DNA of 64,000 nt from a virus (Duplodnaviria; Heunggongvirae; Uroviricota; Caudoviricetes), in the IMG/VR virus record IMGVR_UViG_3300044814_000107, positions 3,224-67,223 of that record; one strand, given 5' to 3'. Shown in pieces: positions 22,922-38,848 of the stretch. Positions within the stretch are counted from its first letter, which is position 1; each line of letters begins with the position of its first letter. The notes beneath the pieces were generated by a model. It did not search any database and had not been told where the DNA came from. It worked only from the letters and a program-made list of their open reading frames with translations. Made by a program: the position numbers and the translations under genes.

Positions 22922-23121
22922 CCGACGCGGCGCGCGGACGGCGCGAAGAGTTTCGCCTCGACGCTGCCCGGCGCGAGGTACTCGTAGACCTCGGCACCCT
23001 GGGGCCGTACGAGACGGACGGTCCCGGTCGTTCGGACGTCGTGGCGAATCCGGGCGGCGTCTTTCTTCCAGCAGAGGACCTTCTTGCCGTCAGGCAGCGT
23101 CAGCTCGAAGGTCGCTTTCAC
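22918..23121 (-). CDS. hypothetical small protein
   Basis: The 67-aa product is protein-like. The stop overlaps the next start. Confidence 0.45.
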   Translation of the reverse strand: MKATFELTLPDGKKVLCWKKDAARIRHDVRTTGTVRLVRPQGAEVYEYLAPGSVEAKLFAPSARRVG

Positions 23122-23462
23122 GGGTCCCAGTTCTTACTGACGAGGCCGACGGCGGCGTTCAGCGCGAACGCTGCGAGGGCGTAGAGCGTCCAGCGCGGCT
23201 CCTCGAGCCAGGCGACGTAGACGCCGCAGCCGACCCAGAAGCCGGCGCACCAAGGACAGCCGAGGAACTTCGCGAGTACCGGTCGGGTGTAGGTGCCGCG
23301 CGGGTCGTCGTTGTAGACGCGGACGCCCTTGTTCCGCTCGTTCCGGCCAGAGAGCCAGTGGCGGAGCCTAACGGCGTACGGCCACTCATCCCAGCCGATG
23401 AGTCTCACGAGACGAAAGGTCCCGAGCGCGAGAACGAGCGCGACCCACGGCGACGGGATCAC
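23118..23462 (-). CDS. membrane protein with a CPWC motif (DUF1360-like)
   Basis: Track ORF 23118..23507, trimmed to the GTG (VIPSPW) that overlaps the epimerase stop as GTGA. The product contains FLGCPWCAGFWVGCGVYVAW. Confidence 0.5.
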   Translation of the reverse strand: MIPSPWVALVLALGTFRLVRLIGWDEWPYAVRLRHWLSGRNERNKGVRVYNDDPRGTYTRPVLAKFLGCPWCAGFWVGCGVYVAWLEEPRWTLYALAAFALNAAVGLVSKNWDP

Positions 23463-24345
23463 GAGACGAGCTCCGAGAGTCCGACTTCGAGCGGACGCGG
23501 GTTCCACCCGCGCAGGCCCGCGCGGATCTTCGTCGAGTCGAGACAGCTCGATCGAACCTCTCCCGGCCGCGCCGCGACGAACTCATGGCGCGACCCGAGC
23601 CGCGTAAGCAGCGAGAGAATCCGCGTCTCCGCTCCGGTGCCGACGTTGTAGACGCCGGGCAGAAGATGGCAGGCGTCGATCGTCGCCGACGCGACGTCGG
23701 ATACGTGGACGAAGTCGCGGGTCTGCTCGCCGTCGCCGTAGACGACCGGGACGAGACCCCGTTCGATCTGGTCGAGGAAGATCGCGACGACGCCGCCTTC
23801 GGCGTCCGCTCGCTGACGAGGCCCGTAGACGTTCGCGTAGCGCAGGATGACGTGACTGCAGTCGAGGCCGAGGTAGCCCTCGCCGGCGAGCTTCGAGACG
23901 GCATAGGGGGAGACTGGCTTCGGAAGGTCGATCTCCAGCGCCGGCCCTCGACAGTCGCCGTACATCGCTCCGCCCGTCGATGCGAAAACGACCTTCGCCT
24001 CGCAGAGAGCGGCCGCCTGCGCAACGCGGAGAGTGCCGAAGACGTTCGTTCGCGCGTCCTCGAACGGATCGACGACGCTGCGGGTTACGTCGGTCTGCGC
24101 CGCCAAGTGATAGATGACCTCGGGCTCGGCCTCGATGATCGCTTCGGCCGCCTCTACGGTCGCGACGTCCCGCTTCACGAAGTAGGCGGCCGACCCTACG
24201 AGGTTCTCGAGCCTGCCGGTCGAGAGGTTGTCGATCACGAGGACGTATTCGCAGCCGCGCTCGAGAAGCTGCTCGACGAGGTGCGATCCGATGAAGCCTG
24301 CGCCGCCGGTGACGACAGCGCGGCGCGGCGTTCGGCGAGAGTCCA
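23459..24345 (-). CDS. NAD-dependent epimerase/dehydratase (GalE-like)
   Basis: A Rossmann motif (VVTGGAGFIGSHLVEQL) and a catalytic YxxxK motif (YAVSKLAGE) are present. The start was approximated at the GTG of VDSRR. Track ORF 23459..24499. Confidence 0.75.
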
Positions 24346-24419
24346 CGCCCGAAGGATGCCACGAACGGCGAGAGAGCGCGGAGGGAGCCTCACGGCCCCC
24401 CTCCGCCAGGTTGGTTCCT

Positions 24420-24884
24420 CTACGCCGACGGCGTGAGGATGATCTCGCCCGAGGTCTCCTCGCTCGCGGCGACGGTGAGCGTCGCTGCGAGGTGGACATC
24501 GACGCCGTCCGAGCTGCGCGTCGAGTCGCAGGAGATGACGGTCGCGCCGAGCGCGGTCGTCAGGGTGACGACGGCGGACAGGCCGTCCGCAGCCGCCTCG
24601 ACCGTCGCGACGCTCTCGTCGCTGGACGCCCAGACCGGCACGTCGTCCGGCGCGGTCGGGTTACCGTCCACGTCGAGGAACGACGCCGCGGCGCTGAGCG
24701 GAGAGCTGGTGTCGAGGACCTGAAGGTCCATGATGGTGACTCCTTCCAGTTGATGCCAGACTATGAATCCGAGGAGGGGCGGCCCTGGCGCAGCCAACTC
24801 CACCTGTCGCGCGAGTTGCCGTAGCAGTCGCGCTACGACCGTGCCGTTGGCCTCGATGAGTTGCCGCCAAAATCCCTTGGTCAT
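24420..24884 (-). CDS. bacterial Ig-like (Big_2-type) domain protein
   Basis: The C-terminal ~100 aa have an Ig-like pattern (VWASSDESVATVEAAADGLSAVVTLTTALGATVISCDS). An alternative internal start MDLQVLD at 24731 is preceded by GGAAGGAG. Confidence 0.55.
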   Translation of the reverse strand: MTKGFWRQLIEANGTVVARLLRQLARQVELAAPGPPLLGFIVWHQLEGVTIMDLQVLDTSSPLSAAASFLDVDGNPTAPDDVPVWASSDESVATVEAAADGLSAVVTLTTALGATVISCDSTRSSDGVDVHLAATLTVAASEETSGEIILTPSA

Positions 24885-25218: not shown

Positions 25219-25382
25219 TCGTCCCAGGAGAGATTCGTCGCGATCAGCGCCTTGAGACGCAGGTCGCCTCCGAACTCGGACGGGCCGAGATCGCTGGTCG
25301 CGAACAGCGCGGCTTCGATGTCGTCGTGGACATCCTCGAGCGTCTTCCCCTGCGGGGTCACCTGCTGCTCGTCGTCACCCAT
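25140..25382 (-). CDS. hypothetical small protein
   Basis: Track ORF 25140..25613, trimmed to MGDDEQQ, which is preceded by GGGAGG. Confidence 0.4.
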   Translation of the reverse strand: MGDDEQQVTPQGKTLEDVHDDIEAALFATSDLGPSEFGGDLRLKALIATNLSWDEWWRIGRPVHGLASKPDGWEGRPWRI

Positions 25383-26995
25383 CGCGTGCCTCCCTTCAGC
25401 CCGCCCCTTACCGGGGCGGGGTCGTAGATCAGCTCGGCGTCGGCCGCGGGGTCGCGGCGGACGAAGTGCTCGTGGTAGCTCGCGCGGATCGCCTCCTCGG
25501 GCGCGCCGTCGTAGACGCGCCAGCCGGCGCCATACATCGCGGGGAGGTTCGTCGCGGCGTAGGCAGCGCGGCCGTTCGTGATCTTCCGACAGTTCTTCGA
25601 GGCATACCCCCACGCGACGTAGTTCCCGGTAGCCGTGGTGAGACTGATGACTTCGCTTTCGCCGTCCTCTTCAACCGCAACAATCTTGTCTGGGTGGCCG
25701 ATCGTACCGCCGATCCCGCGACTGGCGAGCATTTGGTCTGCCCACGTGCTTCGCTTCTTCGGCCGGACGAGATTGGCGAATCTGACAAAGGTTTCGCGGC
25801 CACCGACTAGATGGACACCCATTTCCGCCTTGCGGTACGGGAAGCCGAAGTGGTCGAGCGCTTCGCACAGCTCCTCGTAGAGGAAAGGGTTGGCGGCCGC
25901 GCTCTGTGCGATGTGGTTTCGGTGGCCCTCGCCGTCGAACATCCCCGCGAGCCAGCCGGCTAGCCAAGCATCATCGTAGTCAGGCGACGGGAACGACGGA
26001 GTTATGACGTGGGTTAGCGACCGGCCAATGGCCGCCGTCTTGAACACTCCGCTTCCCCGTACATAGGTAGCGTCGCCAACAATGACCTCGTTTCCCTGCC
26101 CCCATCTTCCTATCCCCTGCCCCCGGCCTTGCTCTCCGCCGACAGCGATGGGGAAGCGATCCGGCCCGCGAGTACCGTAGAAGTGCTGCCGCCAAAGGTG
26201 ATCAGGCGAGCAGCGAAGACTTCGGCCGGACTCAAACTCCACACGAACGATTGGCGACTGTCGTACCGAGACGTCCGTTACAGCGGATGGCAGTAGATGG
26301 ATCTTCGTTCGCGCAGAGGAGTGTCCCCAGCCGATCACCTCGTCACCCACTCGGACATCGCCTAGATGGCGAAAAGTGAGATCGCCCATCCAGATCGGTG
26401 CCTCTGGCGGATTACAGAACTGCGCCTCGGAGCGCCACGAGAAGTGCCGGACGTTCAGGGGCGCGTCGATCGTCAGCGTGCCGCCGGTCGTCTGGGCTCC
26501 GTGGTTTCCCATCTCGATCGAGAGGTCGGGCCTCAGTCGGCACGCGACCTTCACCATCCCGTGTTTCTTCTGCCGCCAGCAGAGCTGCGCGACAGGATTC
26601 GCCGCCGGCTCGTCGACATCGGTCGCGAAGTGGTTGAAGACGAGAGCGCGCAGGATTCCGACGTCGGGGCCGAGACCGCCGAGGTAGTCGCGGATCGGCA
26701 GGTCGCAGTCGCCGTGGTGCCAGATTTCGTCGGCGTCGCAGGGCAGCACCCAGCGGTGGCCGCGCGCGAGGGCCTCCATCGCGAGCGCGGTCGTCTTCCT
26801 GTCCTGGTAGTAGCCGATCTCGGGATCGTCGCGCAGTTCGACCGGCAGCCGCTCGAGGATCTCGCGCGTCCCGTCGCTCGAGAGGTTGTCGGCGACGATG
26901 ACCTCGTCGACGTGCCAGAGCAGGTGCCGAATCGTCGTCTCGACAATATCCGCCTCGTCTTTGACGAGCATGACCGCGCAGACCGTGCCGCTCAT
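25358..26995 (-). CDS. GT2-family glycosyltransferase interrupted by an intein (545-aa precursor)
   Basis: The flanking (extein) regions carry GT-A motifs: MLVKDEADIVETTI, VADNLSSDGT and a DxD motif (PCDADEIW). The insert runs from CNPPEAPIWM to SLTTATGNYVAWGYASKN and is followed by Cys. It contains block B (RCSPDHLW) and a LAGLIDADG motif (WLAGWLAGMFDGEGH). Confidence 0.8.
   Translation of the reverse strand: MSGTVCAVMLVKDEADIVETTIRHLLWHVDEVIVADNLSSDGTREILERLPVELRDDPEIGYYQDRKTTALAMEALARGHRWVLPCDADEIWHHGDCDLPIRDYLGGLGPDVGILRALVFNHFATDVDEPAANPVAQLCWRQKKHGMVKVACRLRPDLSIEMGNHGAQTTGGTLTIDAPLNVRHFSWRSEAQFCNPPEAPIWMGDLTFRHLGDVRVGDEVIGWGHSSARTKIHLLPSAVTDVSVRQSPIVRVEFESGRSLRCSPDHLWRQHFYGTRGPDRFPIAVGGEQGRGQGIGRWGQGNEVIVGDATYVRGSGVFKTAAIGRSLTHVITPSFPSPDYDDAWLAGWLAGMFDGEGHRNHIAQSAAANPFLYEELCEALDHFGFPYRKAEMGVHLVGGRETFVRFANLVRPKKRSTWADQMLASRGIGGTIGHPDKIVAVEEDGESEVISLTTATGNYVAWGYASKNCRKITNGRAAYAATNLPAMYGAGWRVYDGAPEEAIRASYHEHFVRRDPAADAELIYDPAPVRGGLKGGTRWVTTSSR
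25592..26416 (-). mobile_element. intein (~275 aa) with a LAGLIDADG homing endonuclease, in a glycosyltransferase gene
   Basis: Positions were derived from aa 194-468 of the precursor. The penultimate residue is Lys rather than the usual His, and the +1 extein residue is Cys. Confidence 0.65.
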
Positions 26996-27681
26996 CAGCG
27001 CTTCTCCACGAGCTCGCGGACGGCGGCGCGGCCGATAGCGGCAGCGTCGCGGTATTCCGCGAGGATCGTGAACTGCTCGGTGTAGCCTTCGCCTCCGGGG
27101 ATCGACTGTGGGAGTCGCTCGTGGAAGCTATGCAGAGCCAGTCCGAGGACGCGACGTGCCGGGGTCTCGCAGAAGGCGTCGCAGGCGTATGCGAACGCGC
27201 CGTCGTCGCCGCCCCAGAGTCCGAAGCGCTCGTCGTAGCCGTGCGCTCGTTCCCATGTCGAGCGGGAGAAGACGGTGAGGAGGCCGCTGCCGCCGTGGCC
27301 GAACTGCTGGCAGTCCGCCTCGCTGAAGGTAGGCAGCCCGCGCCAGAGTGAATCGTGGAGACGGACGGTCGCGGCCCGGTCGAGGTATGCGTAGTCGCTG
27401 AAGGGGACGACGAGCCCGTCGTGCTCGCTGGCGAGTTCGATCGCCAAGTCGAGCTGCGGCAACGGCGCGACGACATCCGGGTCGAGTTGGACGATCAGGT
27501 CGTGCGACGCGGCCGAGATGGCGGCGTTCAGGCCGCGCGCCTTAGTGAACGGCTCCGGGGCTCCGACGATGAACTCGGCGCTCGGGTAACGGCTGCGCCA
27601 CCACCGCTCTACGAACTCGAACGCGCGGAGGCGGTCGGGGTCGCCGAGATCCTTCCAAGCGGTGACGATCGAGAAGTTCAC
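26995..27681 (-). CDS. glycosyltransferase-like protein (GT-A fold)
   Basis: Track ORF 26995..27834, trimmed to a GTG preceded by AGGAGGAGGG that overlaps the upstream stop (GTGA). The product contains FSIVTAWKD, LIVQLDPDV and GLWGGDDGAFAYA. Confidence 0.55.
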   Translation of the reverse strand: MNFSIVTAWKDLGDPDRLRAFEFVERWWRSRYPSAEFIVGAPEPFTKARGLNAAISAASHDLIVQLDPDVVAPLPQLDLAIELASEHDGLVVPFSDYAYLDRAATVRLHDSLWRGLPTFSEADCQQFGHGGSGLLTVFSRSTWERAHGYDERFGLWGGDDGAFAYACDAFCETPARRVLGLALHSFHERLPQSIPGGEGYTEQFTILAEYRDAAAIGRAAVRELVEKR

Positions 27682-28412
27682 GCCCTCCTCCTGAGGTCGT
27701 CGCGCTCGGCGATCCGCCACTGGTAGATGTCCGGGTGGACGAGAGAGAGCGGCAGACCATCCGGACTCGGGATCTCCGCGTAGCCCGTCGATGCCTGGAT
27801 GTCGGTGAAGAAGAGAAGGTTCTGCCGGTACCACGGCTCGACGAGTTCATCGTTCCAGAATTCGCTGCGGATGAAGTCGTGCGCGTAGAGGCCGAACGTC
27901 TCGAACTTCTCGGCCCAATACGCCGGCCACTGTTCGTTCAGGTGGCCGTGTCCGCCCTGGCCGGGGATCGCAGCGGAGAAGACGATGCGCCGCGAGACGG
28001 CACAGAGTCCCGCGACGAGGTCGTCGGCGAGCTCAGCCGGCAGGTGTTCGGCTACCTCGAGGCAGACAGCGAGGTCGAAGGTGGGACTGCCCCCGTGGAT
28101 ATGCGCGATCTCGGCGCGCTCGTCGACGACGCGGCTGGCCCAGCTCCGGGAGCGCAGATCGACCGGGAGGAAGTCGATGCGGTGGGGATCGGGGGAGCCG
28201 AACGCCTCGAACTTCCAGACGTCGATCGAGTCGTCGGCGATGAGGACGTCGCAGCCGCGGTCGAAGAACGCGCGGCCCCACCAGCCTTCGCCGCCACCGA
28301 TGTCAGCGACGGTCTTCGGGAGGATCAGCTCGTAGAGGCGTGGGACGACCGCCTCGGCGCTGCGCTGGCATCCCTCGCGAATCCGTTCGTAGACCTCCGG
28401 CGAGAACGTCAT
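27678..28412 (-). CDS. class I SAM-dependent methyltransferase
   Basis: Motif I (VADIGGGEGWWG), an acidic loop (CDVLIADDS) and a post-I motif (DLAVCLEVAEHLP) are present. Confidence 0.75.
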   Translation of the reverse strand: MTFSPEVYERIREGCQRSAEAVVPRLYELILPKTVADIGGGEGWWGRAFFDRGCDVLIADDSIDVWKFEAFGSPDPHRIDFLPVDLRSRSWASRVVDERAEIAHIHGGSPTFDLAVCLEVAEHLPAELADDLVAGLCAVSRRIVFSAAIPGQGGHGHLNEQWPAYWAEKFETFGLYAHDFIRSEFWNDELVEPWYRQNLLFFTDIQASTGYAEIPSPDGLPLSLVHPDIYQWRIAERDDLRRRA

Positions 28413-28647
28413 CGCAAAACCAACCAGGCGAAGAAGACGATCCAGAGAGTGACAAGCGCGCCGATCGCGGCGCCGAGGATGAGCGTTCCTTTGACGAGGT
28501 TACGGTAGACGTCGCGGTTCCAGCGGAAAACAGCGACCGAGTCGGAGACCCACTGGTCGAGAACCGCAGCGATGCCCTGGCGTCTGCCGTGCTGGTAGCG
28601 CTCGGCCAGCCTGACCAAGCCGCTGGTGAGGGCGTCGCGAGCCATCA
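28409..28647 (-). CDS. small membrane protein
   Basis: Track ORF 28409..28759, trimmed to MARDALTSG. The ATG overlaps the upstream stop. It has a C-terminal transmembrane helix. Confidence 0.45.
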
Positions 28648-29310
28648 GTACCCGGCCCCCGAGCGGACGCCGATGTGCTCGACCTGCGGCTCGCCGTCGC
28701 CCCAGACTCCGAAGCGGTACCCCTGACGGACGAGCTCTAGTCCGAACCGACCTTCGCACTCTGGAAGTCCGTCGTCAGGCCAAGGGTTGGAGCGCATGAA
28801 CTCTGTACGCATGAGATTCGGGTTAGTCGTTAGGTACGAGCGGTGGCGGAGCCAGCCGCGCATCGCCTCGTACTCGCCGGGGCGCGACTCGACGAGTCCG
28901 CCGGCGGCGATCTCCTGCTCGCTCACGGCGTCCCGCATCAGCGCCATCTGCGCGAGCGTGTGGTCGGAGTCGAGGACTGCCGCGAGCTCGTGGAGGTCGA
29001 GGCGGTCGAGGAAGAGGAAGTCGTGCTCGAGCCAGAAGACGTATGGGATGTCGGAGTCGCACGCCCACGTCCAGAGCTGCCCGGTCGCGCGACAGAAGCC
29101 GACCTGCGCGGGACCGCCACGCAGCGAATAGCCGTCGCGGTGGCGGACGGTCCACTCGCTCTCGAGGCTCCGGAAGATGCCGTCGCCGAGGATCCGGACG
29201 TCGGCCGGTCGTGGCGACACGTTCTCGAAGAACGACTCCAGCGTCTCGTCCAAGGTCGACATCCGGCCGTGCGTGAGGACGGCGAGCTGGTAGCGGATCG
29301 CTTCCTCCAC
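28645..29310 (-). CDS. hypothetical protein, possibly a sugar-modifying enzyme
   Basis: The GTG start lies 2 nt after the CGACGACCGTAG variant of the start-associated motif. The product is protein-like (YVFWLEHDFLFLDR). Confidence 0.5.
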   Translation of the reverse strand: MEEAIRYQLAVLTHGRMSTLDETLESFFENVSPRPADVRILGDGIFRSLESEWTVRHRDGYSLRGGPAQVGFCRATGQLWTWACDSDIPYVFWLEHDFLFLDRLDLHELAAVLDSDHTLAQMALMRDAVSEQEIAAGGLVESRPGEYEAMRGWLRHRSYLTTNPNLMRTEFMRSNPWPDDGLPECEGRFGLELVRQGYRFGVWGDGEPQVEHIGVRSGAGY

Positions 29311-29825: not shown

Positions 29826-29959
29826 GCTGCGAGCCTACCGAGGATCGCTCGGACGTCCCCGACTTTCAGGCCGAGCCGCTTCGCGATCATCCGCGGCGGC
29901 ATCCCGTTTCTCGTGAGGCTGAGAACGGCCTGCTCGCGTTTAGCCTGCGGCGATTTCAT
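29822..29959 (-). CDS. small HTH DNA-binding protein
   Basis: Track ORF 29822..30037, trimmed to MKSPQAKREQAVLSLTRNGMPPRMIAKRLGLKVGDVRAILGRL, which is a LuxR- or sigma-region-4-like helix-turn-helix. Confidence 0.45.
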   Translation of the reverse strand: MKSPQAKREQAVLSLTRNGMPPRMIAKRLGLKVGDVRAILGRLAA

Positions 29960-31336: not shown

Positions 31337-31338
31337 CG

Positions 31339-32853: not shown

Positions 32854-33541
32854 CAGCGATCCTCGCGAGGTGGTCGGCCCAGATCGCCGCGTAGGGCGAC
32901 TGGTCGACGTTCCGGCCGCTCGAGCTGACGTAGGCGCGGTACACGGCATCGGGAGCGTACACGAGGTGCGCGCCGGCGTCGAAGCAGCGGAGCCAGAGGT
33001 CGTAATCTTCGAGCGAAGACAGCTCCGTCCCGTCGTCGGTGCAGCCGCGGAACCCGCCGACCCGCTCGAACAGATCGCGGTGAACGGCCGTCCCGATGAC
33101 GCACTCGTTCAGCTCGGGCCACCGGCCCTGCTGCGGGATCCCGACGTACGGGTCGAAGCGGAGGCCGCGCGCGGTCTGCCGAACGTACTGGACGGCAGGG
33201 ATGAGCAGCGGCGGCGTCACCCAGAGCTCCTCGTAGTAGTCGTCGTCCTCCCATATCCCCGAGGGGTTGCGCTCGAGCGCGCAGTCGATCTCGCAGAGGA
33301 AGTTCTCGTCGAGCTCGTCGTCGGCGTCGAGGAAGATCAGCCACTCGGCGGCCGCGTTCGCCGCGGCGGCGTTCCGGGCCGCGGAGACCGTCAGCTCCGG
33401 GTAGTGCTCGACGACGATCTGCGGCCGATCCCCTTGCCCGTCGCGCTGCTTCTCGGCGGACGGGTGCGCGCGCGACCACGCGAGGTCGGACCACGGGTGT
33501 GCGTTCCCGCAGGTCGCGATGACGATGGCGAAGCGCGTCAC
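32840..33541 (-). CDS. GT2-family glycosyltransferase
   Basis: GT-A motifs are present: FAIVIATCGN, LIFLDADDEL (DxD) and EDYDLWLRC. Confidence 0.75.
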   Translation of the reverse strand: MTRFAIVIATCGNAHPWSDLAWSRAHPSAEKQRDGQGDRPQIVVEHYPELTVSAARNAAAANAAAEWLIFLDADDELDENFLCEIDCALERNPSGIWEDDDYYEELWVTPPLLIPAVQYVRQTARGLRFDPYVGIPQQGRWPELNECVIGTAVHRDLFERVGGFRGCTDDGTELSSLEDYDLWLRCFDAGAHLVYAPDAVYRAYVSSSGRNVDQSPYAAIWADHLARIADAAA

Positions 33542-34125
33542 GGCGTGGCCGTCGCTGCTGCCTCGGCCGCATGTTCCGGCCGTACGACGACGATCACGCT
33601 GGGGTTGGGCGGCGGCAGGAAAGCCTCTAGCCAGAGCACATGCTGGACTAGGAGGCGGGGGTCGTTACGGCCGTTTCTCAGTCGGATAAGTTCGCCCTCG
33701 CGGGGTACTCCTGACAGGACAACCTCCTGCCGTTCGCCGTCGGGATAGAGCAGAACGACCGGAGTAGCTTCCTGCACGGGCAGCTTCGAGGTTCCCGCGT
33801 CGCCCTCGGCGACAAGCCTTGCGACCTCCTTCGTGCCCTTGGCGGCCTCTTGCGCCAACCGCGTCGTCTCCGACTGCGCGGCCAACAGCAGCGCCGCTGC
33901 CTTCTCCGCCGTCCTCGCGACCTCCTCGCGCTGGCGCTGCTCCTCAGCCTTCGCCGCCTCTTCACGCTGCGACCTTCGGGTTTCGGCCTTCGCCTGCGCG
34001 CGCAGAAGCAACAGCGGTCCAGTGATGACGCCGCCCGCCGTAATGACTCCGGCCAGCACGACCCACAGGGGATCGACGCCGGGCGGGGTGATAGCAGAGA
34101 TGAGGAACGCACCTACGCCGACCAT
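33538..34125 (-). CDS. membrane protein with an EAAK-rich coiled coil
   Basis: Two N-terminal transmembrane helices, then AKAETRRSQREEAAKAEEQRQREE. Confidence 0.5.
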   Translation of the reverse strand: MVGVGAFLISAITPPGVDPLWVVLAGVITAGGVITGPLLLLRAQAKAETRRSQREEAAKAEEQRQREEVARTAEKAAALLLAAQSETTRLAQEAAKGTKEVARLVAEGDAGTSKLPVQEATPVVLLYPDGERQEVVLSGVPREGELIRLRNGRNDPRLLVQHVLWLEAFLPPPNPSVIVVVRPEHAAEAAATATP

Positions 34126-34325
34126 TCCCGCGGGACTTTACCCACCGCGGCGGTGGCCCTACAGGTCTGTCGTCCGACGCGCCCAGACGGAGAGAACGAC
34201 CATGAGGGCAGCGAAGGCGAGTTCGACGCCGCGGGTACGCCACGTCATCCACGGCACGATCACCGCCATAATCGTCGGGACGACAGCGGCGAGCCACGCC
34301 GACCGACAGTAGTACCGAAGCTCGC

Positions 34326-34580
34326 TCACCGCTCGTACTCCCGCGAGTCCCTTCCGAGCGTGACCTCGGCGCCGCACTCGTGCAGTCGCGCGGCCAGATC
34401 CTCGCCTGAAATGATCTCGCCAGCGAACCGGAAGACGGCCCCGTCGCGCTCGTACCGCGCGTACCGAACCGGCTCCTCGCCGACGCAACGCCACGTCTCC
34501 TCGAAGCCCTCGACCGGCAGCTCGGCGATGTGGCCGTCGCACGGGCCACCGATCAGACGGAACGCCTCGAGGCGGGTCAT
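34326..34580 (-). CDS. hypothetical small protein
   Basis: GGAAGGAGACGA precedes the ATG. The 84-aa product is protein-like. Confidence 0.5.
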   Translation of the reverse strand: MTRLEAFRLIGGPCDGHIAELPVEGFEETWRCVGEEPVRYARYERDGAVFRFAGEIISGEDLAARLHECGAEVTLGRDSREYER

Positions 34581-34867
34581 TCGTCTCCTTCCAAGTCGCT
34601 TTCGTCGAGCCAGCCGCGCTCCGGGTCGTTCTCGTCCTGAACGCCAACGAACGCGACGACTCGCCGGCCGTTCTCTAGTGCTCGGCGCCGCCAGTCGCGC
34701 AGGAGTGCGTCAGCCTCCTCGAGCGCCCTCCGCAGCGACGGGTACGTCGCGTCGCGCTCCGGGTTACCGTCGGCTTGGACGACGTAGACGCCGAACTCTC
34801 CGAGCTCGTCGTACTGCTGTGGGTAGCCCGCCTGGGGGCATCCGGTACCGAGAGCGATGCGAGTCAC
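34577..34867 (-). CDS. hypothetical protein
   Basis: This is the C-terminal 96 codons of track ORF 34577..35398, starting from the GTG at VTRIALGTG. That GTG overlaps the stop of the Zn-ribbon ORF (GTGA). The upstream part of the track ORF is Arg-rich noise. Confidence 0.4.
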   Translation of the reverse strand: MTRIALGTGCPQAGYPQQYDELGEFGVYVVQADGNPERDATYPSLRRALEEADALLRDWRRRALENGRRVVAFVGVQDENDPERGWLDESDLEGDE

Positions 34868-35017
34868 GGCCGGACCTCGTACGTCGGCGGGATCGCGGTC
34901 GCGACGCGCAGCGGGAGACTCCCGTCGACGACGACGCAGCCCGACTCCGAGCAGCGGACGTGGTCGAGCGGCGGATGGCCGCAGTACGGGCAGGGGTCGA
35001 GCAGGCCGGCGCGCTTC
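34862..35017 (-). CDS. possible small zinc-ribbon protein (about 51 aa)
   Basis: Own translation gives MKRAGLLDPCPYCGHPPLDHVRCSESGCVVVDG... The frame assignment is uncertain because of a homopolymer run at about 34920. Confidence 0.3.
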
Positions 35018-35550
35018 ATCGCTTCGTAGAACTCGACGATCGCGGCGGCCGCGCGCTCGACGACCGGCCCGAAGGCGAGTCCGAACTTGCTTCTCGAGCT
35101 CGCGGAACGCCTGCGTCATCCGGATCATCGCGCGGCGCGCCTCGCCGCCGACCCGGCCGCGCTCGCCGCCGACCCGGCCGCGCTCGACCCCGACGCGCCA
35201 GATCAGGACGAACCAGAAGACGAGAACGCCGACGATGATCGCGAAGGTCAGCACGTCGCCTCCGAACGACGATCCCCTCGGACGTTGAAGTTCGGGTGCG
35301 AGCGCCGCCAGAGCGCCCGAGCCAGCTTCCGTCGAACCCCGCGCTCGGTAAGCGCTGTAACGCTCTGCACGAGACGCGGCTTCACGCCGTCGATCCACTC
35401 GTTACCCCACGGAGGAGGACAGTGGAAAATCTCGCCGACCCAGAGGAGCCAGCCCTTACGCCGATAGCGGCGCCGATACGTCCACTCGCGGCTCACGTCG
35501 CGTCCCAGCGCGCGCGGCGCTCGGCGAGTTTCTCGGCGATACGCTCGATC

Positions 35551-36027
35551 TCAGCGGCCTCGCCCCAGCAGAACGCGCCCGGGAGGAGGTCGTACGGGCC
35601 GCGAAGAAGATCCTCCAACGGAGGGTTCGGCACGACGGTCGGCGGGGCGAATGGGTCGAGCGCGAGAACCTCGGCGAGCGTTCCCCTGCCAGACGAAGAC
35701 GAGCCCGCCGAGGAACCCGGCCGGCCGCGCGACGACGCGGATCTGGCGCTCTTCGTCTGAGGCTCCGGTGTCGTCGAGTCCCATCGCCTGCTGCCCGTAC
35801 TCGAGCACTACGGCGTAGCAGAGAAGCCCATCCTTCACGGCCTTCAGGAAGTCGAGCGGGCCATCGGACGACGGGAAGCGGTGCGGCGTGTCGTCGTTCT
35901 GGCAGTTGAGCGGCAGGCCGGTCTCCTTGTCCGTGAACTGGACCTTGTCCGGCTCGTCGTTCCAGGGACCGGCGCCCCACTCGCTCTTGTCGACGGTCGT
36001 GTAGACGCGCTCGGCGGCGTTACCCAT
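35551..36027 (-). CDS. hypothetical protein
   Basis: Track ORF 35551..36069, trimmed to MGNAAERVYTTVDKSEWGAGPWNDEPDKVQF. The sequence is protein-like. The C-terminal extent is uncertain. Confidence 0.5.
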   Translation of the reverse strand: MGNAAERVYTTVDKSEWGAGPWNDEPDKVQFTDKETGLPLNCQNDDTPHRFPSSDGPLDFLKAVKDGLLCYAVVLEYGQQAMGLDDTGASDEERQIRVVARPAGFLGGLVFVWQGNARRGSRARPIRPADRRAEPSVGGSSSRPVRPPPGRVLLGRGR

Positions 36028-36379
36028 CGCGGAGTCTCTCGCCGAACGCCTGCCCCGCCGCCATCGCACTATCGGGCGTCACCTTGTCGGCTAGATCGGG
36101 ACCGCCGAAGATCGGGTGCGCTGTCTGGAACAAGCGCAGCAGCTCGACCATCGTGTCGTGGCCGTAGTAGCCGCAGAGGTCGCAGAGGTAGCCGACGTTC
36201 GCGTCGGCGTACTCGGTATGGGCGCGGTACGCCTCCATGAAGGCGTCGGCCGTCCGCTGCCGATCCTCAGGGTCGGGCAATTTCCGGATCGCGTCCATCG
36301 CGTTCGCGATGTCGCCGAAGGTGGCGAGCGTTTCTCCCTGCCACTCGAACTGTGCCATCGGTACCTCCGTCGTCGTCAT
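36020..36379 (-). CDS. hypothetical protein
   Basis: The ATG lies 3 nt downstream of the CTACGGTCGTAGCG motif. An internal alternative start MAQFEWQ is preceded by GGAGG. Confidence 0.55.
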   Translation of the reverse strand: MTTTEVPMAQFEWQGETLATFGDIANAMDAIRKLPDPEDRQRTADAFMEAYRAHTEYADANVGYLCDLCGYYGHDTMVELLRLFQTAHPIFGGPDLADKVTPDSAMAAGQAFGERLRDG

Positions 36380-36382
36380 TCG

Positions 36383-36394: not shown

Positions 36395-36411
36395 CCTACC
36401 GGACGGACGGA

Positions 36412-37926
36412 TCAGGAACGAACGCCACGACGCGGCATACGGCGCGGATCCCACAGACGCCGGCGCTCCTCGAACAGCGCCCCGTCCTCCTGGATCGTCG
36501 CTTGCCCGATCCGGTAGGTCTCGTCGTCGTCTGCCTTCGACCAAGCGGGATGGAGATGCTCGACGATCGCGTCGTGCGCGTGCGCGTAGGTGCCACGTAT
36601 CTGAGCCGTCTGGACAAACTCGTCGTCGCAGTTGCGGCTTGCATATCCGTGAGCGATGTAGTTGCCGCTACTCGTCGTCATAGAAACAACCTCACCCTCA
36701 CCGTCAGGGTGGACGGAGACGATCCGGTCGCGACGACCGAATCTGCGCGCCCCGATCTTCTCGCCTCGCAGACGCGACCTGCCACGCGCTCGCCATCCGA
36801 CGATCAACTCCTCTAGTTTGGCCCGCTTCGTTGGCTCCACCCGGAGCAGAAAGTCGAGGTATCCCTGACGACCCCCTTGCAGGTTGAAATAGGTCATCCC
36901 GTGGTGCTGTTGCTGTGAGTACCGCTTCTCCGTTACAGGGATCTCGAGCATCTCGCACACGTGTCGTACGCGATCAACGATCTCTTCGTTCCGAAGGTGG
37001 CTCTGTGCGGCAACAATTAGACCCGATCCTTCGCCATCGTAGATACCAGCGAGCCAGCCGGCCTCACGCTCTAGGCCAGCAGGGATCGGCTTCGGCTCGT
37101 CGGCCACGTGTAGCAGCAGCGCACCAGGGTGAGGAGTCACCCACTGTCGATCCGGCTGTTTATCTAGGAGTGCAGGAGTCCACCACGCATTCAGCCAACG
37201 GTGATCGGGTGTGCAGCGAAACTCGCGCCCCGATTCCATGACCACCCGCACGAGCTCGGCATGACGTCTCTGCACGCTGAGGACATCCGCGAAGCAAAGA
37301 CTCCTCCTCGGAGATCCGACAGTCGGTCGCGCTGCTGCGTTGTATTCCCACCCGATTACTCGATCGCCTACCTCGATCTCCCCGAGAGGCGTAAAGGAGC
37401 AGTCGGCCATCCAGATAGGTGCCTCGGGCGGGTTGCAGTACCAATGCCCATACACCTCCGGGAGGATCCGGGTCGGGTCGTCGATGACGCCGCCGCAGGC
37501 GAGGTAGTCGCGATGCACGAGCGGGTGCGTCGAGTGGACGCCCGAGAGGACGCGCCGGTTCCCGAGGTCGTTCGTGCCGACGACGCAGGCGCCGAACGGG
37601 TGCCGGGAGGCGGCTCGTAGGCACGCCTCGAACCAGCCGTCGTGGAAGAGGAGGTCGGAGGCGGCGAGCAGGATCCAGTCCTCGCTCATCAGATCGTAGG
37701 CGCGGTTGTGCTTCCGAGCCCAGTCCGCGCGACACGGCTGCTCCCACGGGACGACGACAACTTCTTCGCCGGTCGATCGGCACGCCTCGATCGTCTCGTC
37801 GTCGCCGGGCGAACAGGAGAACAGGATCCGCGCGTGGGGAGCTGTCGCTCGAGCTGAACGCGCGGTCTCGACGCAGCGCTCGGGCCGGCCGAGAGTCGGA
37901 ATCGAGATAAGCAGCGACGGCGTCAT
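36412..37926 (-). CDS. glycosyltransferase-like protein interrupted by an intein (504-aa precursor)
   Basis: The N-extein carries GT-A-like motifs (ISIPTLGRPERC and ILFSCSPGDDET). The insert begins CNPPEAPIWM and ends GNYIAHGYASRN, followed by Cys. It contains block B (RCTPDHRW) and a LAGLIDADG motif (WLAGIYDGEGSG). This is a paralog of the intein in 25358..26995. Confidence 0.75.
   Translation of the reverse strand: MTPSLLISIPTLGRPERCVETARSARATAPHARILFSCSPGDDETIEACRSTGEEVVVVPWEQPCRADWARKHNRAYDLMSEDWILLAASDLLFHDGWFEACLRAASRHPFGACVVGTNDLGNRRVLSGVHSTHPLVHRDYLACGGVIDDPTRILPEVYGHWYCNPPEAPIWMADCSFTPLGEIEVGDRVIGWEYNAAARPTVGSPRRSLCFADVLSVQRRHAELVRVVMESGREFRCTPDHRWLNAWWTPALLDKQPDRQWVTPHPGALLLHVADEPKPIPAGLEREAGWLAGIYDGEGSGLIVAAQSHLRNEEIVDRVRHVCEMLEIPVTEKRYSQQQHHGMTYFNLQGGRQGYLDFLLRVEPTKRAKLEELIVGWRARGRSRLRGEKIGARRFGRRDRIVSVHPDGEGEVVSMTTSSGNYIAHGYASRNCDDEFVQTAQIRGTYAHAHDAIVEHLHPAWSKADDDETYRIGQATIQEDGALFEERRRLWDPRRMPRRGVRS
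36631..37437 (-). mobile_element. intein (~269 aa) with a LAGLIDADG homing endonuclease, in the second glycosyltransferase gene
   Basis: Positions were derived from aa 164-432 of the precursor. Its N-terminal and C-terminal blocks are identical to those of the intein at 25592..26416. Confidence 0.6.
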
Positions 37927-38002
37927 TCGAAGAACCCGCCGCCGCAGCCCGCCGCGATCAGCACGACCGCGGTGAACAGAACGACGGCGGGTAAACCGAG
38001 TC

Positions 38003-38848
38003 TCACGCCGAGGATGCCTCCCCCGCGCCCTCAGACGCCGCCTGCGTCCCGCCGCCGCTGCCGCCGGTGATCGCGGTCAGGTCGGCCTCGAGCGCCGACA
38101 GATCGAATCCTGCGGGCGAGGAGTCCTTCCCGCCGAAGAAGTCAGGAGAGAGCAGGGCGTAGACCTCGTCGACGTACTCGGCGAAGAAGGCGTTCGTCAT
38201 CTTCAGGACGCCGCCCCACGTCACGACGACGAGAGAGTCCTCGTCGTAACCGACGATCGGGACCGCGTGGCCGCCCCACGATCCCGGCTGGCTCCGCTCC
38301 GGATCGTCCGCGACGACGTCCCAGACCGGCTGGCCCTGCGCCGTCAGCGGCAGCCCGACGCCGATGTAGACGCCGCCGAACAGCGCGATCGCGGCCTTCA
38401 CGAGCTCGAGGTTCGACGCCTCGACGCCTGCGTACGCGGTGATCTTGTCCACCCACGTCGTTCCGGCGGCGATGCCCTGCTTCCGCCAGTAGTTGAGAAC
38501 GTCGATCTCCGACCGGCCGTTGTCGTCGCTGCCGGTCGCCCAATACACACCGACCACGTCGGCGTCACCCATCGTCTTGAGACCGCCAGCGGCGGCGCTC
38601 CACGCCTGGACCATGTGGCCCGAAGCGGCGCAGGTGCAGTCGCCGAGCGAGTCGTTGTCGTACATCGGCCACGACGGGACGTCCGAGTAGAAGTCGGTCG
38701 TCAGCGGCGTCGCGGGGAGTACGACGGCCTCGTCGACGTACTTGGCGAGGCGCAGTTTCGGTGGCTCGGCGGGCTTGATGCGGCCGAGGCGGAGATGTCC
38801 GAAGTCGCCGTGCTCGGCGAACTCGGGATGGATAGCGAGCTCGATCAT
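38003..38848 (-). CDS. papain-like (C1-type) cysteine peptidase
   Basis: Track ORF 38003..38947, trimmed to MIELAIHPEF. A catalytic Cys motif (GDCTCAASGH) and a His motif (WGGHAVPIVGYDEDSLVVVTWG) are present. It may be a lysis or virion peptidase. Confidence 0.6.
   Translation of the reverse strand: MIELAIHPEFAEHGDFGHLRLGRIKPAEPPKLRLAKYVDEAVVLPATPLTTDFYSDVPSWPMYDNDSLGDCTCAASGHMVQAWSAAAGGLKTMGDADVVGVYWATGSDDNGRSEIDVLNYWRKQGIAAGTTWVDKITAYAGVEASNLELVKAAIALFGGVYIGVGLPLTAQGQPVWDVVADDPERSQPGSWGGHAVPIVGYDEDSLVVVTWGGVLKMTNAFFAEYVDEVYALLSPDFFGGKDSSPAGFDLSALEADLTAITGGSGGGTQAASEGAGEASSA

What the first reader, a model, noticed from the sequence alone, without database searches (positions are those of the whole stretch)
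23118..38848. Large glycosylation and small-membrane-protein island inside a phage genome
Between the structural genes and the Ro/terminase block lie four GT-A-type glycosyltransferases (three GT2-family and one GT-A-like), two of them intein-bearing. Also here are a GalE-like epimerase, a class I SAM methyltransferase, a GNAT acetyltransferase, an SPFH/Band-7 protein, an Ig-like (Big_2) protein, a papain-like peptidase and more than 10 small membrane or Cys-rich proteins. Most of these are translationally coupled. This looks like a self-contained sugar-modification pathway. It could glycosylate virion proteins or modify the host envelope, for example superinfection exclusion or receptor masking.
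Basis: inference. Interest (0 to 1): 0.6.

Follow-up and report, generated by a model that had tools for sequence, protein, structure and literature searches.

The report
Phage sugar-coating gene cassette with inteins
An uncultured high-GC phage carries, between its DNA-packaging and head genes, five sugar-transferring enzymes plus sugar-tailoring enzymes that most likely coat its own particle with glycans, as a few mycobacteriophages are known to do. Unusually, two of these enzymes are interrupted by self-splicing inteins.

Summary
All genes in 23118-38848 lie on the minus strand between Ro60/TerL and the portal. The region encodes five GT-A glycosyltransferases, not four: the 221-aa ORF at 28645-29310 was missed. 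It also encodes an NDP-sugar epimerase/dehydratase, a probable SAM methyltransferase, a GNAT, an SPFH protein, a papain-fold peptidase and about 11 small membrane or Cys-rich ORFs. 22 of 32 gene junctions overlap. Two GTs carry class-1 LAGLIDADG-type inteins, and intein-free homologues align straight across both insertion sites. The Big_2 call is not supported, and "GalE" is too specific.

This is not a foreign island. Portal-anchored sampling shows that GT(ext2)-GT233-epimerase-DUF1360 upstream of the portal is near-universal in this uncultured lineage. The SPFH protein and the small ORFs are not conserved with it.

One GT (26995-27681) is homologous to Corndog gp37 and Che8 gp109, which belong to the experimentally shown virion-glycosylation cassettes. 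Virion O-glycosylation is therefore the best reading (about 0.55); envelope modification is the main rival.

The system is a new variant of a known kind. GT-hosted inteins recur in metagenomes but are absent from the published actinophage intein survey.

The parts
38003..38848 (-). Papain-fold (C1-like) cysteine peptidase, 281 aa. It is the first gene of the conserved block.
   Evidence: The AF2 model has pLDDT 88. Foldseek's top hit is xylellain 3ois (E 4e-10), followed by procathepsins B/K. Cys71 and His194 are invariant in 40 homologues. About 2,900 metagenomic homologues were found. L036 has it at the same position.
37923..38006 (-). 27-aa ORF with a lipobox-like LIAAGC, overlapping both neighbours by 4 nt.
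   Evidence: L036 has two 29-aa ORFs at the same place. Whether it is a real gene is uncertain.
36412..37926 (-). GT-A glycosyltransferase 'GT(ext2)', 504 aa as precursor and 235 aa once spliced.
   Evidence: Pfam Glyco_tranf_2_3 scores 26.5 bits against a GA of 27. phrog_14945 scores 8e-9. A profile search of the PDB hits PglI-like and ArnC GT-A enzymes (E 1.4e-3 to 9e-3). It is found in 13 of the GT-anchored loci and in 7 portal-anchored loci.
36631..37437 (-). Class-1 intein (269 aa), inserted before the conserved C/V-DDE motif of GT(ext2).
   Evidence: The junctions read HWY|CNPPEAPIWM...YASRN|CDDEF. All 12 homologues in loci lack it. P0023 and P0046 carry a 48-50% identical intein at the same site.
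32840..33541 (-). GT2-family glycosyltransferase 'GT233', DxD motif FLDADDE.
   Evidence: Pfam Glycos_transf_2 scores 30.4 bits against 23.3, and Glyco_trans_2_3 scores 30 against 27. phrog_14775 scores 9e-7. 25 IMG/VR relatives were found.
29343..29825 (-). GNAT acetyltransferase.
   Evidence: Pfam Acetyltransf_9 scores 33.3 bits against 25. It is conserved in L027, L036 and L039.
28645..29310 (-). Fifth glycosyltransferase, 'GT221'. GT-A fold with an E-x-D motif (LEHDF).
   Evidence: There is no Pfam or NCBIfam hit. The AF2 model has pLDDT 94.5. Foldseek hits RmlT, ppGalNAc-T2/T7, TarP and SpsA (E 4e-9, TM 0.6-0.7). tblastn hits 'galactosyl transferase' genes of Gordonia phages and of GX15bay. 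The family has more than 230 metagenomic members, yet only two small MAG contigs among 185,579 species genomes.
28409..28645 (-). 78-aa single-pass membrane protein between GT221 and the methyltransferase.
   Evidence: Transmembrane score 2.5. L036 has a 73-aa ORF at the same position. No sequence homology was detected.
27678..28412 (-). Probable class I SAM-dependent methyltransferase.
   Evidence: Methyltransf_23 scores 22 bits against 27, below GA. Motif I aligns with SAM methyltransferase 3e8s. Orthologues are present in L020, L027, L036 and L039, and the L036 orthologue has an unmarked Methyltransf_23 hit.
26995..27681 (-). GT-A glycosyltransferase 'GT228', homologue of Corndog gp37 and Che8 gp109.
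   Evidence: blastp gives 2e-19 (32% identity) to Corndog gp37 and 1e-13 to Che8 gp109. tblastn hits GTs in 364 Mycobacterium phage records, and the sampled rows name phages I recognise as clusters O, F, I, J and C. phrog_1721 scores 2e-22. Glyco_transf_7C scores 23 bits, equal to GA.
25358..26995 (-). GT2-family glycosyltransferase 'GT(ext1)', 545 aa as precursor and 270 aa once spliced. DxD motif CDADE.
   Evidence: Glyco_tranf_2_4 scores 41.1 bits against 27.5 on the spliced sequence. Intein-free homologues are 45-54% identical over residues 4-269.
25592..26416 (-). Class-1 intein (275 aa) in the conserved RS.EQF|x(R/S)K..NG motif of GT(ext1).
   Evidence: The junctions read AQF|CNPPEAPIWM...YASKN|CRKITNG. 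It matches portal inteins of ~154-158-kb Mycobacterium phages at 31-33% identity (E 1e-34 to 1e-36). P0002-P0005 carry 44-46% identical inteins at the same site.
23459..24328 (-). Extended-SDR NDP-sugar epimerase/dehydratase (GGAGFIGSH, YxxxK).
   Evidence: Pfam Epimerase scores 1.4e-49. phrog_540 scores 3.6e-64. No NCBIfam equivalog cut-off is met.
23118..23507 (-). DUF1360 three-pass membrane protein with a CPWC motif. It is a constant neighbour of the portal.
   Evidence: PF07098 scores 45.7 bits against 21. phrog_781 scores 8e-17. It lies upstream of the portal in at least 16 related loci.
31538..32443 (-). SPFH/Band-7 membrane protein. It sits inside the region but is not conserved with the cassette.
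   Evidence: Band_7 scores 8.4e-27 and phrog_200 scores 7e-42. It is absent next to the cassette in relatives. In L042 a homologue lies downstream of the head genes on the other strand.
24420..24884 (-). Not verified.
   Evidence: Big_2 gives E 0.097 (13 bits against 22.8) over residues 82-104. There is no PDB hit and no homologue in any locus.
29822..31533 (-). Run of seven small ORFs (45-123 aa): two with transmembrane segments and one with four Cys. Lineage-specific filler.
   Evidence: None has a homologue in related loci.
33538..36379 (-). Run of small ORFs (46-195 aa), including two Cys-rich ones and two membrane ones. A 531-nt stretch (35020-35550) carries no gene in the Logan gene calls.
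   Evidence: Only 35551-36027 has a partial homologue, in L036.
18315..21365 (-). Portal protein, the downstream anchor of the block. It carries an intein at aa 343-720.
   Evidence: phrog_776 scores 9.5e-82. Relatives match residues 1-348 and 721-1014 contiguously. The junctions read HW|CVDEE...FFTGN|TGW.
45396..48086 (-). Large terminase, the upstream anchor. It has an insert of about 355 aa in the Walker A loop.
   Evidence: PHROG terminase hits fall in two stretches. DSL-LC01 TerL matches residues 32-100 and 455-880 only. The junctions read GRGFGK|LLHEE...PTHN|TVS.

Best explanation
The core of the region is a late-expressed, cytoplasmic glycan-assembly cassette that belongs to the phage's head-morphogenesis gene block.

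Proposed mechanism (inferred):
1. Five soluble GT-A glycosyltransferases, mutually unrelated at sequence level, take host NDP-sugars.
2. Some of these sugars are first remodelled by the phage's SDR epimerase/dehydratase.
3. The GTs build an O-linked hetero-oligosaccharide on virion proteins, most likely on exposed C-terminal Ser/Thr of the major capsid and tail-tube subunits.
4. The methyltransferase and the GNAT add methyl and acetyl groups to the glycan.
5. Two of the GTs become active only after their class-1 inteins splice out at conserved motifs.

The likely benefit is surface shielding or altered adhesion of the particle.

The SPFH protein and most small membrane or Cys-rich ORFs are unrelated accessory genes that have accumulated between the cassette genes.

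Shown: gene content, folds, intein boundaries, synteny, and homology of one GT to Corndog gp37 and Che8 gp109.

Inferred: the acceptor, the glycan composition, the timing, the benefit, and that the inteins splice.
For: 1. GT228 is homologous to Corndog gp37 (2e-19) and Che8 gp109 (1e-13). These are members of the gp36-38 and gp108-110 GT cassettes. Che8, Corndog and Myrna carry glycosylated virion proteins (PMC12363180, citing Freeman 2023). The glycans sit at the C-termini of capsid and tail-tube subunits (PMC12619734).
2. The placement logic matches Corndog, where a methyltransferase plus three GTs lie between the portal and the protease (PMC4351075). Here the cassette is on the same strand as TerL and the portal, lies between them and is tightly coupled. 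In the GX15bay-like loci L004, L008 and L010 the cassette lies 2-4 kb upstream of TerL-PhoH-portal.
3. Portal-anchored sampling, which is independent of the GTs, covered 13 loci with at least 2.4 kb of upstream sequence. 10-11 of them carry GT(ext2), GT233 or the epimerase upstream of the portal, down to 36% portal identity. The minimal form is TerL-GT(ext2)-GT233-epimerase-DUF1360-portal.
4. None of the five GTs has a predicted transmembrane segment. No flippase, polymerase or polyprenyl-phosphate transferase was detected.
5. The GT221 family has more than 230 metagenomic members, but only two small MAG contigs turned up among 185,579 species genomes. It is phage-specific rather than borrowed from host cell-wall loci.
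6. All five GTs keep a DxD or ExD motif.
7. The MCP ends in ...YSYGSTS and the tail-tube homologue in ...TFPVT. Corndog's MCP ends in ...PLVGS. This is weak evidence.
Against: - There is no direct evidence for any acceptor.
- GT228 is homologous to gp37 and gp109, not to gp38 and gp110, which PMC12363180 names as essential. The other four GT families have no detectable counterpart in Che8 or Corndog.
- MCP C-termini are no longer than in the GT-less relative DSL-LC01, which also has Thr there.
- The best structural matches of GT221 include the wall-teichoic-acid GTs RmlT and TarP as well as the protein O-GalNAc transferases, so the fold does not discriminate between acceptors.
- A conserved membrane protein (DUF1360) sits between the cassette and the portal, and small membrane ORFs are interleaved. 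This would fit a membrane-linked step.
- The host and the lifestyle are unknown.
Confidence: 0.55

Rival explanations
1. Host-envelope modification. The soluble GT-A enzymes glycosylate a cell-wall glycopolymer (teichoic-acid-like polymer, arabinogalactan or lipoglycan intermediate) on the cytoplasmic face. This would mask the receptor, giving superinfection exclusion or protecting progeny from adsorbing to debris. The membrane proteins (DUF1360, SPFH, small transmembrane ORFs) would assist.
For: GT221's structural neighbours include RmlT and the prophage-encoded TarP, which are soluble GT-A enzymes acting on wall teichoic acid. DUF1360 and several transmembrane ORFs lie in or beside the cassette. 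The A1 and A2 profiles hit TarP, TarS and ArnC weakly.
Against: - The cassette is embedded in the head gene block in three different architectures, whereas conversion genes usually sit by integration or immunity modules.
- No integrase or repressor was seen in the roughly 80 kb examined.
- The GT221 family is virtually absent from bacterial genomes and therefore from prophages.
- DUF1360 tracks the portal even where no GT is detectable (L042 and L044).
- SPFH and the small transmembrane ORFs are not conserved with the cassette.
Confidence: 0.2
2. No common function. The GTs and tailoring enzymes are independently acquired accessory genes with different targets, collected in a permissive TerL-portal gap.
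For: The gap is clearly permissive. It also holds Ro60, SPFH, tRNAs and about 20 orphan ORFs. In DSL-LC01 the gap is only about 3 kb with no GTs. The five GTs are mutually dissimilar. The epimerase changes position and type between relatives.
Against: The same GT families co-occur in the same order in dozens of contigs that are only 30-60% identical. That degree of linkage implies joint selection.
Confidence: 0.1
3. DNA hypermodification. The GTs add sugars to hydroxymethylated bases in phage DNA to evade restriction.
For: Phage GTs that hypermodify DNA with diverse glycans are known (Pyle et al. 2024, as cited in PMC12619734). The phage invests in DNA modification: it has a Mom-family protein and an N6/N4 methyltransferase.
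Against: No dNMP hydroxymethylase or thymidylate-synthase homologue, nor any other hypermodified-base pathway gene, was detected in the window or in about 17 kb of flanks. The cassette is linked to head genes, not to replication genes. One GT is homologous to protein-glycosylation cassette members.
Confidence: 0.05
4. Glycopeptide production. A GT S- or O-glycosylates one of the small Cys-rich ORFs (SunS/sublancin-like glycocin) or a membrane peptide.
For: Cys-rich ORFs of 51-84 aa are interleaved with the GTs. SunS appears among the weak PDB hits of the ext2 profile (E 0.89).
Against: The SunS hit is not significant. None of the Cys-rich ORFs is conserved in any cassette-bearing relative. No leader-peptidase or ABC exporter is present.
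Confidence: 0.03

Closest known systems
Virion O-glycosylation cassettes of mycobacteriophages: Corndog gp35-38 (methyltransferase plus three GTs between portal and protease) and Che8 gp108-110 (Freeman et al. 2023; PMC4351075; PMC12363180)
   Same: Both are phage-encoded clusters of small soluble GT-A enzymes with a methyltransferase. As in Corndog, the cluster sits inside the head-assembly gene block. GT228 is a sequence homologue of Corndog gp37 and Che8 gp109. The phage background is actinophage-like.
   Different: - Five GTs instead of three, and four of them have no detectable homologue in Che8 or Corndog.
- No homologue of gp38/gp110.
- It additionally has an NDP-sugar epimerase/dehydratase and a GNAT.
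- It lies between TerL and the portal rather than between the portal and the protease.
- Two of its GTs carry inteins.
- Its function is untested.
Multi-GT cluster of the metagenomic phage Caudovirales GX15bay (MK557849) and GX15bay-like IMG/VR contigs
   Same: GX15bay has homologues of GT233 and GT221 (34-36% identity). Together with a methyltransferase and about five further GTs, they sit immediately upstream of TerL-PhoH-portal.
   Different: The backbone differs (another TerL and portal type), there are no inteins, and it is only annotated, never studied.
Lysogenic-conversion glycosylation: GtrABC O-antigen modification and prophage TarP wall-teichoic-acid GlcNAc transferase
   Same: Both are phage-encoded GT-A enzymes. 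TarP is a structural neighbour of GT221.
   Different: Gtr systems need a flippase and integral-membrane GTs, and neither is present here. Conversion genes belong to temperate phages, whereas this family is essentially absent from bacterial genomes.
Class-1 LAGLIDADG inteins of actinobacteriophages, for example portal inteins of ~154-158-kb Mycobacterium phages such as JayJay (cluster C from my own knowledge) (Kelley et al. 2016, PMC5050341; Gosselin et al. bioRxiv 10.1101/2025.01.02.630785)
   Same: The splicing architecture is the same. Identity to those portal inteins is 31-33%. A non-His penultimate residue (Lys or Arg) is documented for phage class-1 inteins.
   Different: The host protein is a glycosyltransferase. 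That extein type is not among the 19 listed for about 800 actinophage inteins. At least three GT-A families carry site-specific branches of this intein clade.
DNA-glycosylating phage GTs (T4 alpha/beta-GT; Pyle et al. 2024)
   Same: Both are phage GT arrays that use host NDP-sugars.
   Different: No hydroxymethyl-base pathway was found, and the cassette is linked to head genes rather than nucleotide-metabolism genes.

Membership tests
GT-A fold glycosyltransferases (GT2-like) | The family HMM reaches its curated threshold. | tested here: met
   Two of five clearly pass: GT(ext1) at 41.1 against 27.5 and GT233 at 30.4 against 23.3. GT228 is exactly at GA (23 against 23). GT(ext2) is 0.5 bit below (26.5 against 27). 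GT221 has no Pfam hit. PHROG GT families hit all five, with E from 2e-22 to 1.5e-3.
GT-A fold glycosyltransferases (GT2-like) | Rossmann-like alpha/beta/alpha nucleotide-binding fold. | tested here: met
   Tested by structure for GT221 only: pLDDT 94.5, and its best Foldseek PDB matches listed were GT-A enzymes. The GT(ext2) and GT221 profiles hit GT-A chains in the PDB. The other three were not modelled.
GT-A fold glycosyltransferases (GT2-like) | DxD (or ExD) metal/nucleotide-binding motif. | tested here: met
   CDADE in ext1, FLDADDE in GT233, LDPDV in GT228, LEHDF in GT221 (E95 and D97 invariant), and AASDL in ext2 (family consensus GADDL; A89 and D91 invariant).
Actinophage virion O-glycosylation system (Che8/Corndog type) | A phage-encoded GT homologous to a cassette member. 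| tested here: met
   GT228 against Corndog gp37 gives 2e-19, and against Che8 gp109 gives 1e-13.
Actinophage virion O-glycosylation system (Che8/Corndog type) | A homologue of the GT reported as essential (Che8 gp110 / Corndog gp38). | tested here: not met
   No window GT matches gp110 or gp38 better than E 0.1 by blastp. A structural comparison was not done.
Actinophage virion O-glycosylation system (Che8/Corndog type) | The cassette lies within or next to the virion structural genes (as in Corndog). | tested here: met
   It lies between TerL and the portal on the same strand. The synteny is conserved in L003, L014, L027, L028, L036, L039 and L047-L055.
Actinophage virion O-glycosylation system (Che8/Corndog type) | Glycans are attached to the C-termini of capsid and tail-tube subunits. 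| not testable with these tools
   The only available clue is that the C-termini end in Ser or Thr. Mass spectrometry is needed.
Class-1 intein | Cys/Ser at position 1, terminal Asn, and Cys/Ser/Thr at +1. | tested here: met
   Both inteins have C1...N|C. The same holds in seven metagenomic alleles.
Class-1 intein | Block B TxxH. | tested here: met
   CSPDH in the ext1 intein (Ser in place of Thr) and CTPDH in the ext2 intein.
Class-1 intein | Penultimate His (block G). | tested here: not met
   The residue is Lys or Arg (SKN, SRN). This is a documented variation in phage class-1 inteins (PMC5050341), so it does not exclude membership.
Class-1 intein | The exteins are contiguous in intein-free homologues, and the insertion lies at a conserved site. 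| tested here: met
   12 + 12 homologues align across both sites, in the motifs RS.EQF-x-(R/S)K..NG and Y.H..-(C/V)-DDE.
Class-1 intein | Homing-endonuclease domain (LAGLIDADG). | tested here: inconclusive
   One clear motif is present (LAGWLAGMFDGEG and AGWLAGIYDGEGS). Pfam LAGLIDADG_3 gives only E 0.076. A second motif was not identified, and activity is unknown.
Class-1 intein | Splicing competence. | not testable with these tools
   The inteins are in frame, intact, and conserved across alleles. This is suggestive only.
Gtr-type / lipid-linked envelope glycosylation | An integral-membrane GT, a flippase or a polyprenyl-phosphate GT. | tested here: not met
   None of the five GTs has a predicted transmembrane segment. 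No such Pfam family was found.
UDP-glucose 4-epimerase GalE | The NCBIfam equivalog cut-off is reached. | tested here: not met
   TIGR01179 scores 119.6 against 262.3, and dTDP-glucose 4,6-dehydratase scores 127.9 against 365. Only membership of the extended-SDR superfamily is met (Pfam 1.4e-49).
Papain-like (clan CA, C1-like) peptidase | Papain fold with a Cys-His dyad. | tested here: met
   Foldseek gives xylellain at 4e-10, followed by cathepsins. Cys and His are invariant. Sequence HMMs alone are not significant (E 0.16-0.26).
Big_2 Ig-like domain | Pfam PF02368 gathering score is reached. | tested here: not met
   13.1 bits against 22.8, E 0.097. There is no PDB sequence hit. No structure was predicted.
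SPFH/Band-7 | Pfam PF01145 gathering score is reached. | tested here: met
   94.8 bits against 23.6, with two N-terminal transmembrane segments.

The most novel reading that the evidence does not exclude
Particle glycosylation is not an accessory island here. It is an ancestral, near-universal component of the head-assembly module of a large, entirely uncultured high-GC phage lineage. In this phage it has expanded to a five-transferase line that builds a methylated and acetylated hetero-oligosaccharide. Two steps of that line are gated by protein splicing, because a dedicated intein clade has radiated across at least three GT-A families. That is an extein class not recorded in phage intein surveys. 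The conserved papain-fold peptidase at the head of the block may prepare the acceptor.
Probability: 0.3. Interest if true: 0.65.

Novelty: new variant of a known kind. Interest (0 to 1): 0.45.

Why it matters
Virion glycosylation in phages was first shown in 2023, for a few mycobacteriophages, where it blunts antibody recognition. This locus suggests that the trait is far more widespread and more elaborate than those cases. The same cassette sits next to the portal in dozens of environmental phage contigs, and part of it (the GT221 family) is essentially confined to phages.

If confirmed, three things follow:
- It would give a set of compact, soluble, phage-specific glycosyltransferases for engineering phage surfaces.
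- It would point to an ecological role for phage glycans outside animal hosts.
- It would show that inteins colonise glycan-synthesis enzymes, extending the list of proteins on which inteins persist and offering a natural splicing-dependent switch on glycosylation.

Tried and rejected
- Megablast of the whole region against 50,697 phage records found nothing.
- tblastn of GT(ext1) against phages found only intein matches and no extein match at E 1e-5. GT233 and GT221 hit only GX15bay and three Gordonia phages.
- NCBIfam gave no usable assignment for any GT, the peptidase or the methyltransferase.
- Single-sequence and profile searches of the PDB were not significant for the peptidase (E 0.16-0.26). 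The claim was settled only by structure prediction.
- Big_2 could not be supported.
- The Freeman 2023 paper itself is not held, so its content is cited through PMC12363180, PMC12619734 and PMC13313380.
- I searched for an S/T-rich C-terminal extension on the MCP as a glycosylation signature. The tails are no longer than in the GT-less DSL-LC01, so this does not discriminate.
- I considered the region as a lysis cassette (peptidase plus small membrane proteins). I rejected this as the main reading, because the small ORFs are not conserved and the peptidase has a cathepsin-like rather than an NlpC/CHAP-like fold. A lytic role for the peptidase is not excluded.
- I considered a recent intein jump between the two GTs within this genome. 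I rejected it: the two inteins are only 34% identical, and each is closer (44-50%) to same-site inteins in other contigs.
- Rfam found only tRNAs and no regulatory RNA in the region.
- The genome-contig scan gave no host clue.

Full report
SETTING. The window is 62-71% GC and is a piece of a tailed-phage genome with nearly all genes on the minus strand. In the direction of transcription the order is:
- two helicases and a DNA methyltransferase;
- the large terminase (45396-48086);
- Ro60/TROVE (40602-42668);
- the region in question (38848 down to 23118);
- the portal (18315-21365);
- a MuF-like head protein (16901-18433);
- a portal/protease-like protein (9548-12001);
- the major head protein (4315-6405);
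- a tail-tube homologue (2502-3158).

No phage record is similar at the DNA level. The nearest cultured relatives by capsid protein are Actinomycetia phage DSL-LC01 and Arthrobacter phage Atuin, at under 40% identity. The same sequence occurs in a Logan assembly of SRR24887271 and in a 92-kb JGI contig.

THE OBSERVATION.
- Pfam supports the epimerase family (1.4e-49), the GNAT, SPFH/Band-7 (8e-27) and DUF1360.
- Among the GTs, GT(ext1) at 25358-26995 and GT233 at 32840-33541 pass Pfam's cut-offs. GT228 at 26995-27681 sits exactly on its cut-off and GT(ext2) at 36412-37926 sits half a bit under. PHROG glycosyltransferase families hit all of them.
- The methyltransferase is below cut-off. It has motif I, and its orthologue in L036 scores well.
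- The papain-like peptidase has no HMM hit at all. A confident model (pLDDT 88) matches xylellain and cathepsins (E 4e-10), and Cys and His are invariant in the family.
- The Big_2 call rests on E 0.097 and is not supported.
- 'GalE-like' is true only at superfamily level.
- I count eight small membrane proteins and three Cys-rich ORFs.
- 22 of 32 junctions overlap, 14 of them by the classic 4 nt.

A FIFTH TRANSFERASE. The 221-aa ORF at 28645-29310 was not listed. It has no Pfam or NCBIfam hit. Its family has more than 230 metagenomic members. It gives a pLDDT-94.5 model whose best Foldseek PDB matches listed were GT-A enzymes: RmlT, polypeptide GalNAc-transferases, TarP and SpsA. Its few homologues in cultured phages are annotated as galactosyltransferases. 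The five GTs show no pairwise BLAST similarity to each other, and each keeps a DxD or ExD motif. This fits five different linkages.

THE INTEINS. Both are real.
- They are 275 and 269 aa. Each starts with CNPPEAPIWM, contains (S/T)PDH and a LAGWLAG..DGEG motif, and ends in S(K/R)N followed by Cys.
- The GT(ext1) intein (the one searched) resembles portal inteins of ~154-158-kb Mycobacterium phages, one of them annotated 'intein-containing portal protein'. The Lys or Arg in place of the penultimate His is a known phage variation (PMC5050341).
- Twelve intein-free homologues of each GT align straight across the insertion points. These points lie in the most conserved motifs: RS.EQF|x(R/S)K..NG and Y.H..|(C/V)DDE.
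- The protein database holds four more GT(ext1)-type and two more GT(ext2)-type precursors with inteins at the same sites, plus a third GT2 type.
- Same-site inteins are 44-72% identical, and cross-site inteins are 33-43% identical. These are therefore old, site-specific branches of one clade, not a recent jump within this genome.
- The latest survey of about 800 actinophage inteins lists 19 host proteins and no glycosyltransferase. A phrase search found no paper on GT inteins.

WHAT BELONGS TOGETHER. Searching IMG/VR with GT233 and with spliced GT(ext1) gave 29 viral contigs. tblastn with every ORF of the window shows two classes of gene.
- Genes that recur together and in the same order: the five GTs, the epimerase, the methyltransferase, the GNAT and DUF1360.
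- Genes with no counterpart anywhere: SPFH, the Big_2-like ORF and essentially all the small ORFs.

The closest relative is L036, at 45-75% identity. Its order is peptidase, two 29-aa ORFs, GT(ext2), GT233, epimerase, GNAT, GT221, a 73-aa ORF, methyltransferase, GT228, a second methyltransferase, GT(ext1), DUF1360, portal, MuF. It has no inteins.

To avoid circularity I then anchored on the spliced portal. Of 13 loci with at least 2.4 kb of upstream sequence, 10-11 carry GT(ext2), GT233 or the epimerase upstream of the portal, down to 36% portal identity. The minimal version is TerL, GT(ext2), GT233, epimerase, DUF1360, portal. DSL-LC01 has a more distant portal and only about 3 kb with no GT in this gap. 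The cassette is therefore an old resident of this lineage's head module. In this phage it has been enlarged and interrupted by orphan ORFs and inteins. It is not a foreign island.

FUNCTION. Three lines of evidence favour glycosylation of the particle.
1. GT228 is homologous to Corndog gp37 (2e-19) and Che8 gp109 (1e-13), and to GTs in 364 Mycobacterium phage records. Che8, Corndog and Myrna virions are glycosylated by their own GTs, at the C-termini of capsid and tail-tube subunits (Freeman 2023, as reported in PMC12363180 and PMC12619734).
2. The cassette is physically tied to head and packaging genes in three architectures: here (TerL-cassette-portal), GX15bay-like phages (cassette-TerL-PhoH-portal) and Corndog (portal-cassette-protease).
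3. The enzymes are soluble, there are no lipid-carrier, flippase or polymerase genes, and the GT221 family is practically absent from 185,579 bacterial and archaeal species genomes.

The pathway is not self-contained. No NDP-sugar-forming enzyme was found, so host nucleotide sugars must be used. The epimerase/dehydratase, methyltransferase and GNAT act as tailoring steps.

The main rival is modification of a wall glycopolymer (TarP/RmlT-like). It is kept alive by the structural neighbours of GT221 and by the unexplained, strictly conserved DUF1360 membrane protein next to the portal.

DNA glycosylation is unlikely. No hydroxymethyl-base pathway gene was seen in the window or in about 17 kb of flanks.

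A glycocin-like role for the Cys-rich ORFs is unlikely, because none of them is conserved.

MCP C-termini end in Ser/Thr-containing tails, but so does that of the GT-less DSL-LC01, so this does not discriminate.

COMPARISON AND VERDICT. In working principle this is the Corndog/Che8 type of phage-encoded virion glycosylation. Membership is only partly established.
- Met: one homologous GT and the structural-module placement.
- Not met: a homologue of the reportedly essential gp110/gp38 was not found by sequence.
- Not testable here: the defining biochemical feature.

It differs from the known systems in size (five GTs), in added tailoring enzymes, in its wide distribution across an uncultured lineage, and in having two intein-interrupted GTs. 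I rate it a new variant of a known kind with moderate interest (0.45). The gene content is solid and the intein hosts are new to the literature I could search, but the mechanism is inferred and the general idea is already published.

Noticed in passing
window 18315-21365 (intein about aa 343-720, roughly 19206-20339): The portal protein carries a 378-aa class-1 intein (HW|CVDEE...FFTGN|TGW). It is absent from every related portal found.
   Followed up: partly
window 45396-48086 (insert about aa 101-455): The large terminase has an insert of about 355 aa inside the Walker A loop (GRGFGK|LLHEE...PTHN|TVS). There is no N-terminal Cys, so it looks like a class-3 intein. DSL-LC01 TerL lacks it. That makes four inteins in 64 kb.
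   Followed up: partly
window 61878-62543: A Mom-family protein (Pfam PF25680, E 7e-40) lies near an N6/N4 DNA methyltransferase (54206-55975). This suggests that the phage modifies its DNA.
   Followed up: no
window 15717-16229 and 15455-15530: An ISXO2/IS1595-like transposase domain (E 5.5e-36) sits beside a tRNA-Thr gene, in the middle of the head gene block between MuF and the protease-like gene.
   Followed up: no
window 43169-43251, 43912-43997 and 21585-21657: Two tRNA-Ser genes called by ARAGORN only (not by Rfam at gathering score) lie between Ro60 and TerL. They could be tRNA-like or Y-RNA-like partners of Ro60. A tRNA-Met lies between the region and the portal.
   Followed up: no
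window 23118-23507; L003, L014, L027, L028, L036, L039-L044, L048-L050, L052, L053, L055: A DUF1360 three-pass membrane protein with a CPWC motif is the most constant upstream neighbour of the portal in this lineage. It is present even where no GT is detectable. Its role is unexplained.
   Followed up: partly
P0355: One member of the papain-fold peptidase family (547 aa) has an intein Pfam hit (PF14890). This conserved phage protein is therefore another unrecorded intein host.
   Followed up: no
window 4315-6405; MCP genes of L014, L041-L054: MCP C-termini in this lineage share a Cys...Cys-bracketed tail of about 15-20 residues containing Thr/Ser (for example CPSGEFPATTTALSC and CAVGQFPPAGTARTC). 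The GT-less DSL-LC01 lacks the Cys pair.
   Followed up: partly
window 35020-35550: A 531-nt stretch carries no gene in the Logan gene calls. Only weak 46- and 82-aa ORFs lie there, and there is no Rfam hit.
   Followed up: no
P0031, P0055, P0034, P0083: Relatives of the GT intein also sit in thermolysin-like metalloproteases (PF02868/PF01447) and PAPS-reductase-like proteins (PF01507). These are further unusual, non-DNA-metabolism exteins.
   Followed up: no
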